Source: a virus
Lineage: Duplodnaviria; Heunggongvirae; Uroviricota; Caudoviricetes
Virus record (IMG/VR): IMGVR_UViG_2724679140_000010
Location: 1-7,812 of that record
Direction: 5' to 3' (one strand)
Length of the DNA: 7,812 nucleotides
The translations under genes were made by a program, and so were the position numbers. The notes below the pieces were generated by a model, which was not told where the DNA came from, did not search any database, and saw nothing but the letters and a program-made list of their open reading frames with translations. This document shows, piece after piece, positions 190 to 6,985 of this stretch; position 1 is the first letter of the stretch, and every line of letters starts with the position of its first letter.

Positions 190-669
190 TCATAGTCGCT
201 TTTCCGGTGCGATGGTGGAAGAAACCGGAATAATGAATTGTGAATGCAAAATGTGGTTTCTTACTGAGTAATACTGGCAGTGTTTTCTGTTTACATCCAG
301 AACATATTTAAAGATGCCTGCACGGGAAAGAGTAAAGTGGCTCCGGAAGAAGGGTATGTTTCCGGATAAATGTTTTTTTATAACCAGTTTTGTCCAGATA
401 TTATTTGACCTGTGGTTTATATAAGCAGATCTTTTTTGGGGCTGTACCGTGATCATACTTTGATTATGTGTGGTAAACCTTATATTCCCTGTTGACAGAA
501 AGTAAAAACAATGCGAGATGCCATTTTTATTAAGGTAATCAGTAACGGAAATAATATCATTATCGTGTGATGAAATAAGCAACGATATAACAGAGGTTAG
601 CCGACTATTCTCTGTGGAAACACAATCTGGTGGTGATAAATCTGAATGAGTTATGTAAAAATTGAACAT
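190..669 (-). CDS. Hypothetical 159-aa ORF in the AT-rich right-end region; doubtful as a real gene
   Basis: A 480-nt open frame is statistically unusual in ~35% GC DNA. However, the translation is Ser/His/Asn/Ile/Thr-rich with almost no Glu or Ala, there is no Shine-Dalgarno before the ATG at 669, and I recognise no family. Confidence 0.2.
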   Translation of the reverse strand: MFNFYITHSDLSPPDCVSTENSRLTSVISLLISSHDNDIISVTDYLNKNGISHCFYFLSTGNIRFTTHNQSMITVQPQKRSAYINHRSNNIWTKLVIKKHLSGNIPFFRSHFTLSRAGIFKYVLDVNRKHCQYYSVRNHILHSQFIIPVSSTIAPEKRL

Positions 670-3714: not shown

Positions 3715-3901
3715 ACTGCAGGCGCTGCGTCAGGCGCGTCTTGATTTATTAACCGGTAAACGGGTGGTGTCGGTCCAGAAAGATGGTCGCAGAATTGAAT
3801 ATACGGCAGCCTCTCTGGATGAGCTTAATCGTGCTATCAATGATGCGGAGTCGGTACTGGGGACAACCCGCCGCCGTCGCCCGCTGGGAGTGAGGTTATG
3901 A
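3698..3901 (+). CDS. W: Head-tail joining / head completion protein (lambda gpW-like), 67 aa
   Basis: The sequence …LTGKRVVSVQKDGRRIEYTAASLDELNRAI…TRRRRP resembles lambda gpW (68 aa) as recalled. GGAGG lies upstream of the ATG. Stop overlaps the B start as ATGA. Confidence 0.88.
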   Translation: MVTVAELQALRQARLDLLTGKRVVSVQKDGRRIEYTAASLDELNRAINDAESVLGTTRRRRPLGVRL

Positions 3902-5490
3902 AACGAACGCCAGTCCTGATTGATGTGAACGGCGTTCCGCTTCGTGAGAGTCTCAGCTACAACGGGGGCGGCGCAGGATTTGGCGGGCAAATGGCCGAGT
4001 GGTTACCACCGGCGCAGGGTGTTGATGCTGCCCTGCTGCCTGCGTTGCGTCTGGGGAATGCCCGTGCAGATGATCTGGTACGCAATAACGGTATAGCGGC
4101 CAATGCGGTGGCCCTGCATAAGGATCACATTGTCGGGCACATGTTTCTTATTAGTTACCGTCCGAACTGGCGCTGGCTTGGGATGCGGGAGTCCGCGGCA
4201 AAAATCTTTGTCGATGAGGTGGAGGCGGCCTGGTCGGAATACGCGGAAGGAATGTTTGGCGAGATCGATGTGGAAGGGAAACGCACCTTTACGGAATTTA
4301 TCCGTGAAGGTGTGGGCGTTCATGCATTTAACGGTGAAATCTTTGTGCAGCCGGTCTGGGATACGGAAACCACACGGTTATTCCGCACGCGTTTTAAAGC
4401 CGTGAGCCCTAAACGGGTGGACACGCCGGGACACGGTATGGGTAACCGTTTCCTGCGGGCCGGGGTGGAAGTCGATCGGTATGGACGGGCCGTTGCGTAC
4501 CATATCTGTGAGGATGATTTTCCGTTCTCTGGTCGTGGACGATGGGAACGGATCCCGCGTGAACTTCCCACCGGGCGTCCGGCCATGCTGCATATTTTCG
4601 AGCCGGTTGAGGACGGGCAGACCCGTGGGGCTAATCAGTTTTACAGCGTCATGGAACGGCTGAAAATGCTCGATTCCCTGCAGACCACGCAGCTTCAGTC
4701 GGCCATAGTGAAGGCGATGTATGCAGCGACGATTGAAAGTGAACTCGATACCGAAAAGGCCTTTGAATATATCGCGGGTGCACCGCAGAGTCAGCAGGAT
4801 AATCCGCTCATTAATATTCTGGAGAAGTTCACCCGCTGGTATGACACGAATAACGTGACGCTGGGCGGTGTCAAAATTCCGCACCTTTTCCCCGGGGATG
4901 ATTTGAAACTGCAGACTGCGCAGGATTCAGATAATGGATTTTCTGCGCTTGAACAGGCGCTGCTGCGGTATATCGCCGCCGGTCTTGGTGTTTCCTACGA
5001 ACAGTTGTCCCGTGATTACTCGAAGGTCAGTTACTCAAGTGCCCGTGCCTCAGCCAATGAGTCGTGGCGTTATTTTATGGGGCGACGAAAATTTATTGCG
5101 TCCCGGCTGGCCACGCAGATGTTTTCCTGCTGGCTGGAAGAGGCGCTTCTTCGGGGGATTATTCGTCCGCCACGGGCGCGTTTTGATTTTTATCAGGCGC
5201 GTTCAGCCTGGTCACGGGCAGAGTGGATTGGCTCCGGAAGAATGGCCATTGATGGACTCAAGGAGGTTCAGGAGTCGGTGATGCGCATTGAGGCCGGACT
5301 GAGCACGTATGAGAAAGAGCTGGCGCTGATGGGTGAGGATTATCAGGACATTTTCCGCCAGCAGGTCAGGGAATCTGCAGAGCGGGAAAAAGCCGGGCTC
5401 TCACGCCCGGTGTGGATAGCGCAGGCGTATCAGCAGCAGATAGCGGAGAGTCGCAGGCCGGAAGAGGAGACAACACCACGTGAGACGTAA
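3898..5490 (+). CDS. B: Portal protein (lambda gpB-like), 530 aa
   Basis: Size (530 aa vs lambda 533) and position immediately after W, translationally coupled via ATGA overlap, fit a lambda-type portal. The long ORF has coherent codon usage. Confidence 0.9.
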   Translation: MKRTPVLIDVNGVPLRESLSYNGGGAGFGGQMAEWLPPAQGVDAALLPALRLGNARADDLVRNNGIAANAVALHKDHIVGHMFLISYRPNWRWLGMRESAAKIFVDEVEAAWSEYAEGMFGEIDVEGKRTFTEFIREGVGVHAFNGEIFVQPVWDTETTRLFRTRFKAVSPKRVDTPGHGMGNRFLRAGVEVDRYGRAVAYHICEDDFPFSGRGRWERIPRELPTGRPAMLHIFEPVEDGQTRGANQFYSVMERLKMLDSLQTTQLQSAIVKAMYAATIESELDTEKAFEYIAGAPQSQQDNPLINILEKFTRWYDTNNVTLGGVKIPHLFPGDDLKLQTAQDSDNGFSALEQALLRYIAAGLGVSYEQLSRDYSKVSYSSARASANESWRYFMGRRKFIASRLATQMFSCWLEEALLRGIIRPPRARFDFYQARSAWSRAEWIGSGRMAIDGLKEVQESVMRIEAGLSTYEKELALMGEDYQDIFRQQVRESAEREKAGLSRPVWIAQAYQQQIAESRRPEEETTPRET

Positions 5491-6985
5491 TCTTTCACAC
5501 ATTATTGCAGCAGCATTCAATGAACCGCTGCTTCTGGAGCCCGCCTATGCGCGGGTTTTCTTTTGCGCGCTGGGGCGTGAGATGGGTGCGACAAGTCTTT
5601 CGGTACCGCAACAGCAGGTACAGCTTGATGCTCCCGGGATGCTGGCTGAAACGGACGAGTACATGGCCGGAGGAAAACGACCGGCCCGTGTTTACAGGGT
5701 GGTGAATGGTATTGCTGTACTGCCGGTGACAGGCACGCTGGTGCACCGGCTGGGGGGGATGCGGCCATTTTCCGGAATGACAGGTTATGACGGCATTGTC
5801 GCCTGTCTTCAGCAGGCAATGTCGGATACCCAGGTGCGGGGTGTACTGCTGGATATTGACAGCCCTGGTGGGCAGGCCGCCGGCGCGTTTGACTGCGCTG
5901 ACATGATTTACCGCCTCCGGCAGCAGAAGCCTGTCTGGGCGCTGTGCAATGACACGGCCTGTTCTGCCGCAATGCTGCTGGCATCGGCCTGTTCCCGACG
6001 GCTGATTACCCAGACATCACGTATCGGCTCCATTGGTGTGATGATGAGCCATGTCAGCTATGCCGGTCATCTGGCGCAGGCCGGTGTTGATATCACGCTT
6101 ATTTACGCCGGATCGCACAAGGTGGATGGCAATCAGTTTGAATCCCTGCCGTCAGAGGTTCGCCAGGACATGCAGCAGCGCATTGATGCGGCGCGCCGGA
6201 TGTTTGCTGAAAAAGTGGCGATGTATACCGGTTTATCTGTGGATACGGTTATGGGGACAGAGGCCGCTGTTTTTGAAGGGCAGTCAGGTATTGAGGCCGG
6301 GCTGGCGGATGAATTAATCAATGCGTCGGATGCCATCAGCGTGATGGCCGCGACGCTGAACACACATGATACAGGAGGCACTATGCCGCAATTAACTGCA
6401 ACGGAAGCCGTCGCGCAGGAGAACCAGCGAGTGATGGGGATCCTGACATGCCAGGAAGCGAAAGGACGTGAACAGCTTGCCTCGATGCTGGCAGGACAAC
6501 AGGGCATGAGCGTTGAGCAGGCCCGGGCGATTCTGGCAGCGGCGGCACCGCAGCAGCCGGAGGCATCCCCGCTGAGTGAAGCCGATCGCATTATGGCGTG
6601 TGAAGAAGCGAAAGGTCGTGAACAACTGGCTGCAACGCTGGCGGCGATGCCGGATATGACAGTGGAAAAAGCCCGCCCGATCCTGGCTGCTTCACCACGG
6701 GCGGATGCCGGACTATCACTCCGTGATCAAATCATGGCCCTGGATGAGGCGAAAGGGGCTGAGGCGCAGGCTGAAAAACTGGCGGCCTGCCCGGGGATGT
6801 CCGTGGAGAATGCCCGGGCTGTACTGGCTGCTGCATCAGGTAAAGCTGAACCAGTCTCTGCCTCCACGACATCCATGTTTGAACGTTTCATGGCGAACCA
6901 TTCACCGGCAGCGGTGCAGGGCGGCATGTCACAAACGTCAGCAGACGGTGATGCGGACGTAAAAATGCTCATGGCCATGCCATAA
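5480..6985 (+). CDS. C: Prohead protease / scaffold fusion protein (lambda gpC-like, S49-type serine peptidase domain), 501 aa, GTG start
   Basis: N-terminus NLSHIIAAAFNEPLLLEPAYARVFFCAL and the segments GMTGYDGIVACLQQA, AGAFDCADMI, KPVWALCNDTACSAAMLLASA, IGVMMSHV, ITLIYAGSHKVDGN resemble lambda gpC as recalled. GTG at 5480 is preceded by GAGGAGA and overlaps the B stop by 11 nt. Confidence 0.88.
   Translation: MRRNLSHIIAAAFNEPLLLEPAYARVFFCALGREMGATSLSVPQQQVQLDAPGMLAETDEYMAGGKRPARVYRVVNGIAVLPVTGTLVHRLGGMRPFSGMTGYDGIVACLQQAMSDTQVRGVLLDIDSPGGQAAGAFDCADMIYRLRQQKPVWALCNDTACSAAMLLASACSRRLITQTSRIGSIGVMMSHVSYAGHLAQAGVDITLIYAGSHKVDGNQFESLPSEVRQDMQQRIDAARRMFAEKVAMYTGLSVDTVMGTEAAVFEGQSGIEAGLADELINASDAISVMAATLNTHDTGGTMPQLTATEAVAQENQRVMGILTCQEAKGREQLASMLAGQQGMSVEQARAILAAAAPQQPEASPLSEADRIMACEEAKGREQLAATLAAMPDMTVEKARPILAASPRADAGLSLRDQIMALDEAKGAEAQAEKLAACPGMSVENARAVLAAASGKAEPVSASTTSMFERFMANHSPAAVQGGMSQTSADGDADVKMLMAMP
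6383..6985 (+). CDS. nu3: Candidate nested in-frame scaffolding protein (lambda Nu3-like), 200 aa, sharing frame and stop with C
   Basis: In-frame ATG at 6383 (C residue 302, MPQLTATEAV…) is preceded by a perfect AGGAGG at 6373-6378 with 4-nt spacing. In lambda, nu3 is translated in-frame from within C. The exact start is an inference. Confidence 0.5.
   Translation: MPQLTATEAVAQENQRVMGILTCQEAKGREQLASMLAGQQGMSVEQARAILAAAAPQQPEASPLSEADRIMACEEAKGREQLAATLAAMPDMTVEKARPILAASPRADAGLSLRDQIMALDEAKGAEAQAEKLAACPGMSVENARAVLAAASGKAEPVSASTTSMFERFMANHSPAAVQGGMSQTSADGDADVKMLMAMP
6437..6860 (+). repeat. Three tandem in-frame repeats (~141-150 nt, ~47-50 aa each) within the C/Nu3 coding region
   Basis: Peptide units are RVMGILTCQEAKGREQLASMLAGQQGMSVEQARAILAAAAPQ, RIMACEEAKGREQLAATLAAMPDMTVEKARPILAASPRADAG and QIMALDEAKGAEAQAEKLAACPGMSVENARAVLAAASGKAE. 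The DNA anchor GAAGCGAAAGG is at 6455 and 6605, and GAGGCGAAAGG at 6746. Units have diverged at the DNA level, so the duplication is not recent. Confidence 0.75.

What the first reader, a model, noticed from the sequence alone, without database searches (positions are those of the whole stretch)
6360..6400. Strong internal ribosome-binding site inside C supports an independently translated Nu3-like scaffold
AGGAGG at 6373-6378 precedes the in-frame ATG at 6383 with ideal spacing, inside the C reading frame. This fits the lambda C/nu3 nested-gene arrangement and places all three repeats in the putative Nu3 product.
Basis: partly seen in the sequence, partly recalled or inferred. Interest (0 to 1): 0.4.

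Follow-up and report, generated by a model that had tools for sequence, protein, structure and literature searches.

The report
Internal start for nested phage scaffold gene
Inside a prophage head-protease gene there is a real, deeply conserved second ribosome-binding site and start codon that should make the capsid scaffolding protein separately, but phage 21 and lambda already taught us this, so it is ordinary.

Summary
AGGAGG lies at 6373-6378, followed by a 4-nt spacer (CACT) and then ATG 6383. The ATG is in frame with the 501-codon S49 protease gene (5480-6985) and opens a 200-aa C-terminal product.

The window is a phage-21-like prophage of E. coli, 100% identical to strain M8. Both GenBank records of phage 21 annotate an RBS and "gene 6 / scaffolding protein" at exactly the homologous base. 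They also place three "Tri boxes" inside that gene.

Lambda carries the same AGGAGG-N4-ATG at the homologous position (ATG 5342). This is not the nu3 start given in RefSeq (5132).

Among 51 non-redundant homologues (down to 37% identity), 50 keep a Met here and 46 keep an SD-like motif 3-11 nt upstream. A synonymous-codon null expects 8. The amino acids vary (Gly-Gly/Ala/Val) while the bases GGAG stay, so selection acts on the nucleotides.

No other column in the gene shows this signal. The window's only other AGGAGG (5261, in the portal gene) drifts freely at wobble positions.

Translation from 6383 itself was not shown here and is inferred. "Ideal spacing" is overstated: 4 nt is the short end of the working range.

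Verdict: real, interpretation supported, already known. Low interest.

The parts
5480..6985 (+). Gene 5 / lambda C homologue. It encodes a 501-aa S49 (SppA-type) prohead protease fused to a C-terminal scaffold domain. It has a GTG start and overlaps the end of the portal gene (3898-5490) by 11 nt.
   Evidence: ORF list. Pfam Peptidase_S49, E = 1e-34, residues 146-292. Same coordinates annotated in RefSeq E. coli M8 and in phage 21. 58% identical to lambda gpC.
5464..5469 (+). GAGGAG, the putative SD of the full-length protease gene. It lies 10 nt upstream of the GTG start, so both the spacing and the start codon are sub-optimal.
   Evidence: Sequence. Phage 21 record annotates the RBS at the homologous 5465-5470. 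Anti-SD pairing is -9.1 kcal/mol.
5915..6355 (+). Region encoding the S49 peptidase domain (residues 146-292 of the 501-aa protein).
   Evidence: Pfam PF01343. PDB SppA chains match residues 77-290.
6373..6378 (+). Internal Shine-Dalgarno sequence AGGAGG, carried by the in-phase codons ACA-GGA-GGC (Thr-Gly-Gly) of the protease reading frame.
   Evidence: Sequence. -10.3 kcal/mol, the best of all internal in-frame starts. GGAG conserved in 43 of 50 non-redundant homologues against 6.3 expected from synonymous-codon resampling. 42 of 50 use the in-phase GGA codon followed by a G-starting codon.
6383..6985 (+). Nested in-frame gene, homologue of phage 21 gene 6 and lambda Nu3. It encodes a 200-aa scaffolding protein identical to the C-terminal 200 residues of the protease.
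   Evidence: Homologous to the annotated gene 6 start in M81255.1 and OL657228.1. 91% identical to gp6. PHROG 8399 head scaffolding protein. Met conserved in 50 of 51 homologues.
6450..6553 (+). Tri1 repeat, the first of three ~40-45-aa helix-loop-helix repeats. This is the only one shared with lambda Nu3 and with distant relatives.
   Evidence: Coordinates mapped without gaps from the phage 21 'Tri1 box'. Protein self-alignment. Lambda Nu3 matches it with E = 3e-18.
6590..6700 (+). Tri2 repeat.
   Evidence: Mapped from the phage 21 'Tri box'. Self-alignment. Lambda repeat matches with E = 2e-11.
6731..6844 (+). Tri3 repeat.
   Evidence: Mapped from the phage 21 'Tri3 box'. Self-alignment. Lambda repeat matches with E = 6e-9.

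Best explanation
The site is a genuine internal translation-initiation region in the head protease gene of a phage-21-like E. coli prophage.

Ribosomes that bind AGGAGG (6373-6378) start at ATG 6383. They make a 200-aa scaffolding protein (the gp6 / Nu3 homologue) whose sequence is identical to the C-terminal 200 residues of the 501-aa protease.

Two products therefore come from one frame:
- A minor protease-scaffold fusion, from a GTG start with a distant SD that is translationally coupled to the portal gene.
- A probably more abundant free scaffold, from an ATG with a strong SD.

Because both share the scaffold domain, the protease is carried into the assembling prohead along with the scaffold. 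It can then digest the scaffold and itself to empty the shell for DNA packaging.

Shown here: the sequence features, their exact homology to the annotated phage 21 gene 6 start, and nucleotide-level purifying selection on SD+ATG across the family.

Inferred from lambda/21 biology: that initiation actually occurs, the relative yields of the two products, and the scaffold and protease-targeting roles.
For: - Coordinates, frame and 4-nt spacer read directly.
- Best SD among 44 internal in-frame start codons (-10.3 against -7.8 for the next). Rank 5 of 719 start triplets in the window.
- The site lies 10 codons past the S49 domain, in a linker where homologues carry indels.
- Phage 21 records annotate RBS + gene 6 / scaffolding protein at the homologous base, with three Tri boxes inside. 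The sequence AGGAGGCACTATGCCG is identical in phage 21.
- In about 65 close relatives, the 12 nt just upstream fall into two haplotypes that differ at most positions (ACACATGATACA against AGTAATGTCAGA). AGGAGGCACTATGCCG is invariant.
- Lambda, Gifsy-1 and phi80 have (A)GGAGG-N4-ATG at the aligned position.
- Among 51 homologues clustered below 85% identity (down to 37%), 50 have Met at the column and 46 have an SD-like motif 3-11 nt upstream. Only 25 of 723 other in-frame Mets do.
- 42 of 50 have in-phase GGA followed by a G-starting codon. The encoded second residue varies: Ala 16, Gly 14, Val 11, Glu 1. GGA is only 12.8% of Gly codons in these genes.
- With protein sequences held fixed and synonymous codons resampled, the null expects 8.0 +/- 2.4 SD-like sites (maximum 17 in 2000 trials). 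Observed: 46.
- No other alignment column accumulates more than 2 SD+Met cases.
- Chivirus FSL SP-124 and Rhodobacter RcIroh, both more distant, have their best-scoring internal SD+ATG at the same domain junction; in Xanthomonas FoX4 the junction site ranks second, behind a GTG at codon 22.
- The product is 91% identical to gp6 and matches PHROG 8399 'head scaffolding protein'.
Against: - No expression data of any kind are available for this prophage, so initiation at 6383 is inferred.
- The motif alone is not statistically unusual in the window.
- A 4-nt spacer is at the short edge of efficient SD-start spacing.
- The 51 homologues are phylogenetically related, so counts overstate independent events.
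- One lineage lacks a Met at the column (L078 group). Four lack a recognisable SD, and Felixounavirus wV8 shows none.
- RefSeq annotates lambda nu3 at a different codon (5132).
- The source genome record does not annotate the nested gene.
Confidence: 0.9

Rival explanations
1. Coincidence. AGGAGG is simply the Gly-Gly codon pair of a linker and the Met is an ordinary residue. No ribosome starts here.
For: AGGAGG count is 2 against 2.64 expected, and the composite pattern is 1 against 0.47 expected. The other AGGAGG in the window (5261, in the portal gene) is demonstrably such a coding by-product.
Against: The amino acids at the site vary (G/A/V/E, and the flanks are unconserved) while GGAG and ATG are kept. 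46 observed against 8.0 +/- 2.4 under a synonymous-codon null. GGA, a minority Gly codon (12.8%), is used in 42 of 50. The contrast with the portal-gene AGGAGG is clear: there the peptide LKEVQE is conserved but wobble bases drift and Met becomes Leu.
Confidence: 0.02
2. The scaffold-domain fragment arises only by autoproteolysis of the full-length protease-scaffold fusion, as in phage P2 gpO. The internal SD/ATG is not used as a start.
For: Protease-scaffold fusions that are processed rather than re-initiated exist. P2 is cited as a single-gene protease/scaffold in PMC8508860. Lambda gpC is itself processed (established knowledge).
Against: This does not explain nucleotide-level conservation of SD and ATG. 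In lambda, C and Nu3 behave as overlapping but separate genes (Shaw & Murialdo 1980, listed; content from my own knowledge). Phage 21 curators annotate a separate gene 6.
Confidence: 0.04
3. The internal SD-like sequence acts on elongating ribosomes as a pause at the domain boundary that helps the protease domain fold. It does not act as an initiation signal.
For: It sits exactly at the S49 / scaffold domain junction. SD-like sequences in ORFs have been proposed to cause pausing. This is established but disputed literature, cited from my own knowledge.
Against: A pause element would not need a conserved Met 4-8 nt downstream, yet Met is present in 50 of 51. The SD-induced pausing idea has been seriously questioned. 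This role is also not exclusive of initiation.
Confidence: 0.02
4. The nested gene is real but starts at a different internal codon, for example GTG 6431 / ATG 6434 (preceded by AGGAG at 6420-6424), or at the codon homologous to the RefSeq lambda nu3 start.
For: GTG 6431 / ATG 6434 have a moderate SD (-7.4 kcal/mol). RefSeq places lambda nu3 at 5132.
Against: No column other than that of Met302 accumulates SD+Met among homologues (maximum 2 of 51). Met319 is a structural residue of the Tri motif and recurs in repeats 2 and 3. The residue aligned to lambda Met239 is Ile in the window, and Met occurs there in only 5 of 51 homologues. That position is inside the S49 domain and has a weak SD in lambda (-6.9 against -10.8 at 5342).
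Confidence: 0.02

Closest known systems
Phage 21 genes 5 and 6 (GenBank M81255.1 'Bacteriophage 21 head gene operon'; OL657228.1 complete genome)
   Same: Same gene order: terminase, W-like, portal, gene 5 with nested gene 6, shp/D-like, major capsid. The sequence AGGAGGCACTATGCCG is identical. RBS and gene 6 start are annotated at the homologous base. There are three Tri boxes inside gene 6. DNA is 92.7% identical and the product 91% identical, with no indels.
   Different: An allelic variant. It has 18 substitutions in the 200-aa product. The four codons before the SD differ (THDT against SNVR). The window is a resident prophage of mouse-derived E. coli strains, where RefSeq annotates only 'S49 family peptidase'.
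Bacteriophage lambda C / Nu3 overlapping genes (Shaw & Murialdo 1980)
   Same: An S49 protease gene containing an in-frame nested scaffold gene. AGGAGG + 4 nt + ATG (5332-5337 / 5342) lies at the aligned position. The first Tri-type repeat is shared. Same synteny.
   Different: Lambda's scaffold part has one Tri-type repeat instead of three, plus a 36-residue insertion right after the Met. From Met309 the product is 131 aa, against 200 aa here. RefSeq and GenBank annotate nu3 from Met239 (5132, 201 aa), a codon that is not conserved in the family.
Gifsy-1 (Salmonella) and phi80 gpC homologues
   Same: AGGAGG-CACT-ATG (Gifsy-1, Met302 of 498) and GGAGG-AACT-ATG (phi80, Met311 of 447) at the aligned position. 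In each case this is the top-scoring internal start.
   Different: The nested gene is not annotated in either record. The phi80 scaffold part is divergent.
Herpesvirus UL26 / UL26.5 protease-scaffold nested genes, and phage Mu I/Z (from my own knowledge, not tested here)
   Same: Same logic. An abundant scaffold protein is co-terminal and in frame with a rarer protease-scaffold fusion, so the shared C-terminus delivers the protease into the procapsid.
   Different: Herpesviruses use a separate internal promoter and transcript rather than an internal SD. Their protease (assemblin) has an unrelated fold. No sequence relationship was tested.

Membership tests
Lambda C/Nu3-type (phage 21 gene 5/6-type) nested protease-scaffold gene pair | The host ORF is an S49 (SppA-like) prohead protease gene lying between the portal gene and the decoration and major capsid genes. 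| tested here: met
   Pfam PF01343, E = 1e-34. PHROG 53 head maturation protease. RefSeq neighbours are portal, S49 peptidase, head decoration and major capsid.
Lambda C/Nu3-type (phage 21 gene 5/6-type) nested protease-scaffold gene pair | An in-frame internal start codon with its own Shine-Dalgarno sequence, downstream of the protease domain. | tested here: met
   AGGAGG 6373-6378, ATG 6383, codon 302. The S49 domain ends at residue 292. Best SD of all internal in-frame starts.
Lambda C/Nu3-type (phage 21 gene 5/6-type) nested protease-scaffold gene pair | The internal start is positionally homologous to the start in characterised members. | tested here: met
   Homologous to the annotated gene 6 start of phage 21 and to lambda AGGAGG/ATG 5342. 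It is not homologous to the RefSeq lambda nu3 start at 5132.
Lambda C/Nu3-type (phage 21 gene 5/6-type) nested protease-scaffold gene pair | The SD and start codon are under selection beyond what the overlapping protein frame requires. | tested here: met
   46 of 50 against 8.0 +/- 2.4 under the synonymous-codon null. 25 of 723 for other in-frame Mets. The second codon varies G/A/V but always starts with G.
Lambda C/Nu3-type (phage 21 gene 5/6-type) nested protease-scaffold gene pair | The C-terminal product is homologous to gp6 / Nu3 scaffolding proteins. | tested here: met
   91% identical to phage 21 gp6. Lambda Nu3 repeat matches with E = 3e-18. PHROG 8399 'head scaffolding protein', E = 2e-35. 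Pfam and NCBIfam have no model for it.
Lambda C/Nu3-type (phage 21 gene 5/6-type) nested protease-scaffold gene pair | The shorter protein is actually made by independent initiation. | not testable with these tools
   No ribosome-profiling or proteomic data are accessible. Papers that might hold lambda data could not be retrieved.
Lambda C/Nu3-type (phage 21 gene 5/6-type) nested protease-scaffold gene pair | The product acts as a scaffold: it is present in proheads, removed before or during packaging, and required for correct shell assembly. | not testable with these tools
   Inferred from homology only. A single-sequence AlphaFold model (pLDDT 66) shows three helix-loop-helix repeats and a disordered tail. 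This is compatible with a scaffold but not diagnostic.

The most novel reading that the evidence does not exclude
The SD+ATG at this column is the ancestral, family-wide start of the scaffold gene in lambda-type S49 protease genes, and it is constrained at the nucleotide level.

That would place the lambda Nu3 start at ATG 5342 (Met309, 131 aa) rather than the 5132 (Met239, 201 aa) carried by RefSeq and GenBank. It would also mean the nested scaffold gene is systematically missing from RefSeq prophage annotation. More than 1,200 complete E. coli genomes carry at least 80% of this window.

A further untested possibility is that Tri-repeat copy number (1 in lambda, 3 here) sets the valency of the scaffold.
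Probability: 0.7. Interest if true: 0.25.

Novelty: already known. Interest (0 to 1): 0.1.

Why it matters
It matters little as a discovery. The nested protease/scaffold arrangement is a textbook feature of lambda, and it is explicitly annotated in phage 21, of which this window is a 93%-identical allele.

The practical value is for annotation:
- The nested scaffold gene is absent from the RefSeq annotation of the source genome and of most relatives.
- The comparative signal gives a simple rule for finding it: an in-phase GGA-GNN, then 1-2 codons, then ATG, just past the S49 domain.
- The same signal argues that the reference lambda nu3 coordinates start 70 codons too early.

Tried and rejected
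- Tandem Repeats Finder found nothing in the window. The DNA repeat finder returned only two 15-nt, two-copy families that look like chance. The three Tri repeats are visible only at the protein level.
- Folding 100 nt of RNA around the site gave no unusual structure (z = 0.06). I therefore dropped the idea of a structured regulatory element or an unusually open initiation region.
- A PDB sequence search found only SppA-type proteases for the N-terminal part and nothing for the scaffold part. Pfam and NCBIfam have no model for the scaffold part.
- I tried to settle the experimentally determined N-terminus of lambda gpNu3 from the literature. Medina et al. 2010 and 2011, Casjens & Hendrix 2015 and the lambda ribosome-profiling paper are not held. 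Six full-text searches and the readable papers gave only general statements.
- I considered the alternative start at 6431/6434 and rejected it, because no homologue column there accumulates SD+Met.
- I considered the second AGGAGG (5261) as another internal start and rejected it, because its wobble positions drift.
- The CII-box matches annotated in OL657228 are at chance frequency.
- I ran no fold search on the AlphaFold model, because its confidence (pLDDT 66, pTM 0.31) is too low for meaningful matches.
Full report
**What is in the sequence**

Reading the window directly gives AGGAGG at 6373-6378, then CACT, then ATG at 6383-6385. The surrounding ORF runs 5480-6985 (GTG start, 501 codons). 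Since 6383-5480 = 903 = 3 x 301, the ATG is codon 302, in frame. It would give a 200-aa protein ending at the same stop.

The spacer is 4 nt. From established knowledge of E. coli ribosome-binding sites, that is the short edge of the efficient range, so 'ideal spacing' is an overstatement.

**Is it more than chance?**

Taken alone, no:
- AGGAGG occurs twice in the window against 2.64 expected.
- AGGAGG-N3-9-ATG occurs once against 0.47 expected, and 75 of 200 shuffles have at least one.

Context changes this:
- Of the 44 internal in-frame ATG/GTG/TTG codons of the ORF, 6383 has by far the strongest pairing to the 16S anti-SD (-10.3 kcal/mol; next -7.8 and -7.4). It ranks 5th of 719 start triplets on both strands of the window.
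- It lies 10 codons past the end of the Pfam S49 peptidase domain (residues 146-292 of 501, E = 1e-34). This is a linker where homologues carry insertions and deletions.
- Local RNA folding is unremarkable (z = 0.06).

**What the locus is**

The window is 100% identical to a prophage in E. coli M8 and three other mouse-derived strains. At least 80% of it is present in 1,236 of 5,426 complete E. coli genomes.

RefSeq annotates, in order: small and large terminase subunits, head-tail joining protein, portal, 'S49 family peptidase' (equal to window 5480-6985), head decoration protein and major capsid protein. No nested gene is annotated.

The nearest named phage is phage 21 (92.7% DNA identity over the gene, no indels). 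Both phage 21 records annotate a ribosome-binding site and a separate CDS starting at locus position 2404. That maps to window 6383. M81255.1 calls it 'gene 6, head-tail preconnector gp6' and OL657228.1 calls it 'scaffolding protein'. M81255.1 also annotates three repeat regions (Tri1, Tri, Tri3 boxes) inside gene 6. These map to window 6450-6553, 6590-6700 and 6731-6844.

The 16 bases AGGAGGCACTATGCCG are identical in phage 21. The 200-aa product is 91% identical to gp6.

**Comparison with lambda**

Lambda gpC aligns over its whole protease part (58% identity). RefSeq annotates nu3 at 5132-5737 (Met239, 201 aa). That codon has several problems:
- It aligns to an Ile in the window.
- It lies inside the S49 domain.
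- It has only weak SD pairing (-6.9 kcal/mol).
- It is Met in only 5 of 51 non-redundant homologues.

At the position that aligns with window Met302, lambda reads TCAGGAGGGCGAATG. That is AGGAGG 5332-5337, a 4-nt spacer and ATG 5342 (Met309), with -10.8 kcal/mol. The geometry is the same as in the window.

Both lambda versions exist in public annotation:
- The 201-aa form is 'capsid assembly protein' (AAA96538.1).
- The 131-aa form was called on 165 contigs.
- PHROG 8399 'head scaffolding protein' has a 131-position profile that the Met309 product matches end to end. PHROG 8940 corresponds to the 201-aa form.

I could not retrieve the papers that would give the experimentally determined N-terminus of gpNu3. 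My recollection is that specialists describe Nu3 as the C-terminal third of gpC, which fits 131 of 439, but this is unverified here.

**Family-wide test**

I fetched 160 related loci from species-representative genomes and viral contigs. I extracted the homologous ORFs, aligned 139 unique proteins and read the DNA under the column of window Met302.

Among about 65 close relatives, the 12 nt immediately upstream fall into two haplotypes that differ at most positions (ACACATGATACA against AGTAATGTCAGA, encoding THDT against SNVR). AGGAGGCACTATGCCG never changes.

I then clustered at 85% identity, which left 51 representatives ranging down to 37% identity:
- 50 have Met at or next to the column.
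- 46 have an SD-like tetramer 3-11 nt upstream, against 25 of 723 (3.5%) for all other in-frame Met codons of the same genes.
- No other alignment column collects more than two SD+Met cases.

The signal is at the nucleotide level. 42 of 50 have an in-phase GGA codon followed by a codon beginning with G. The residue encoded by that second codon varies (Ala 16, Gly 14, Val 11, Glu 1). GGA is only 12.8% of Gly codons in these genes.

Holding every protein sequence fixed and resampling synonymous codons from each gene's own usage predicts 8.0 +/- 2.4 SD-like sites (maximum 17 in 2000 trials). The observed number is 46. The spacing classes (4, 5 or 8 nt) follow from codon phase.

Caveat: the representatives are related by descent, so these are not 51 independent events. 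However, synonymous sites are saturated across most of this range.

Outside the lambda-like set:
- Gifsy-1 and phi80 have (A)GGAGG-N4-ATG at the aligned residue.
- Chivirus FSL SP-124 and Rhodobacter RcIroh have their best-scoring internal SD+ATG at the same domain junction; in Xanthomonas FoX4 it is second to a GTG at codon 22.
- Felixounavirus wV8 does not.

**Internal negative control**

The only other AGGAGG in the window (5261-5266) lies in frame in the portal gene, upstream of an in-frame GTG-ATG. There the peptide LKEVQE(S/A)VM is highly conserved. But the wobble bases drift freely (AAGGAGG, AAGGAAG, AAAGAAG and others), and the Met is Leu in many homologues. This is the opposite pattern to that at 6373, and it is what a coding by-product looks like.

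**The product**

The 200-aa protein contains three ~40-45-aa repeats with the pattern x(D/Q)(R/Q)(I/V)M...EAKG.E....LA..PGM(S/T)VE.AR.(I/V)LAA.

Lambda's scaffold part has a single such repeat. It matches each of the three (E = 3e-18, 2e-11, 6e-9).

A single-sequence AlphaFold model (mean pLDDT 66, pTM 0.31, so only secondary structure is usable) predicts three units of a long helix plus a short helix (6-40/44-54, 66-87/94-102, 113-134/141-151). It also predicts a low-confidence C-terminal ~45 residues.

**Mechanism (inferred)**

One reading frame yields two co-terminal proteins.

The full-length protease-scaffold fusion starts at a GTG that overlaps the portal gene by 11 nt. Its SD (GAGGAG) lies 10 nt away, which suggests a weak, coupled start.

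The scaffold starts at an ATG with a full AGGAGG, which suggests a strong start.

The shared scaffold domain would take the protease into the assembling shell, where it later removes the scaffold and itself. This is the accepted lambda C/Nu3 logic. PMC8508860 notes that lambda encodes protease and scaffold in a single gene and cites Shaw & Murialdo 1980. It also parallels herpesvirus UL26/UL26.5 (my own knowledge). Neither the relative yields nor the function were tested here.

**Rivals**

- Chance Gly-Gly codons: contradicted.
- A fragment made only by proteolysis: does not explain the conserved SD+ATG.
- An elongation-pause element: does not explain the conserved Met.
- Another internal start (6431/6434, or the RefSeq lambda position): no conservation there.

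Together I give these about 0.1.

**Verdict**

The feature is already known, so interest is low.

The by-products worth keeping are the family-wide nucleotide-level conservation, the argument that lambda's reference nu3 coordinates are 70 codons too long, and the absence of the nested gene from RefSeq prophage annotation.

Noticed in passing
L003 (lambda NC_001416) 5132 versus 5332-5344: RefSeq and GenBank annotate lambda nu3 from ATG 5132 (Met239, 201 aa). That codon is inside the S49 domain, has a weak SD (-6.9 kcal/mol) and is Met in only 5 of 51 homologues. The family-conserved AGGAGG-N4-ATG is at 5332-5344 (Met309, 131 aa, -10.8 kcal/mol), and PHROG 8399 'head scaffolding protein' is exactly that 131-aa form. 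The reference annotation is probably 70 codons too long.
   Followed up: partly
window 5261-5283: The only other AGGAGG in the window lies in frame in the portal gene, upstream of an in-frame GTG 5278 / ATG 5281. In homologues the peptide LKEVQESVM is conserved, but the wobble bases drift and Met is often Leu. It is a coding by-product, not a start, and served as a negative control.
   Followed up: yes
window 6388-6401 and 6622-6635, minus strand: Two matches to TTGYN6TTGY. The homologous sites are annotated as 'transcription factor CII' binding sites in phage 21 record OL657228.1. The window has 2 matches against 1.59 expected (95 of 200 shuffles reach 2), so these look like chance pattern matches.
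   Followed up: yes
L146 (451 aa), L140 (482 aa), L144 (439 aa), L163 (538 aa): Otherwise close relatives of the gene differ in length within the scaffold part: about 50 aa shorter, 19 aa shorter, and 37 aa longer. This suggests gain and loss of Tri repeats or recombination between them. Lambda has one repeat and the phage 21 group has three.
   Followed up: no
L013-L021, L023, L037-L041, L050, L056 (genome-contig hits): Lambda-identical C gene sequences sit on short, very low-coverage contigs in assemblies labelled Neobacillus, Kitasatospora, Shewanella, Pseudomonas, Leeuwenhoekiella, Akkermansia MAG, Amycolatopsis, Enterococcus and others. This is almost certainly lambda DNA contamination (control or spike-in) in those assemblies, not real prophages.
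   Followed up: no
L164 (E. coli M8 NZ_CP019953.1), locus 8480-9985 = window 5480-6985: RefSeq/PGAP annotates only 'S49 family peptidase' and no nested scaffold gene. The same holds for the Gifsy-1 and phi80 records. The nested gene is therefore missing from annotation in most carriers of this very common prophage module.
   Followed up: partly
window 190-669 (minus strand) and about 885-1054: A DUF1398-family gene on the opposite strand and a frameshifted helix-turn-helix pseudogene sit between the lysis genes and the small terminase gene. This looks like a moron-type insertion upstream of the head operon.
   Followed up: no
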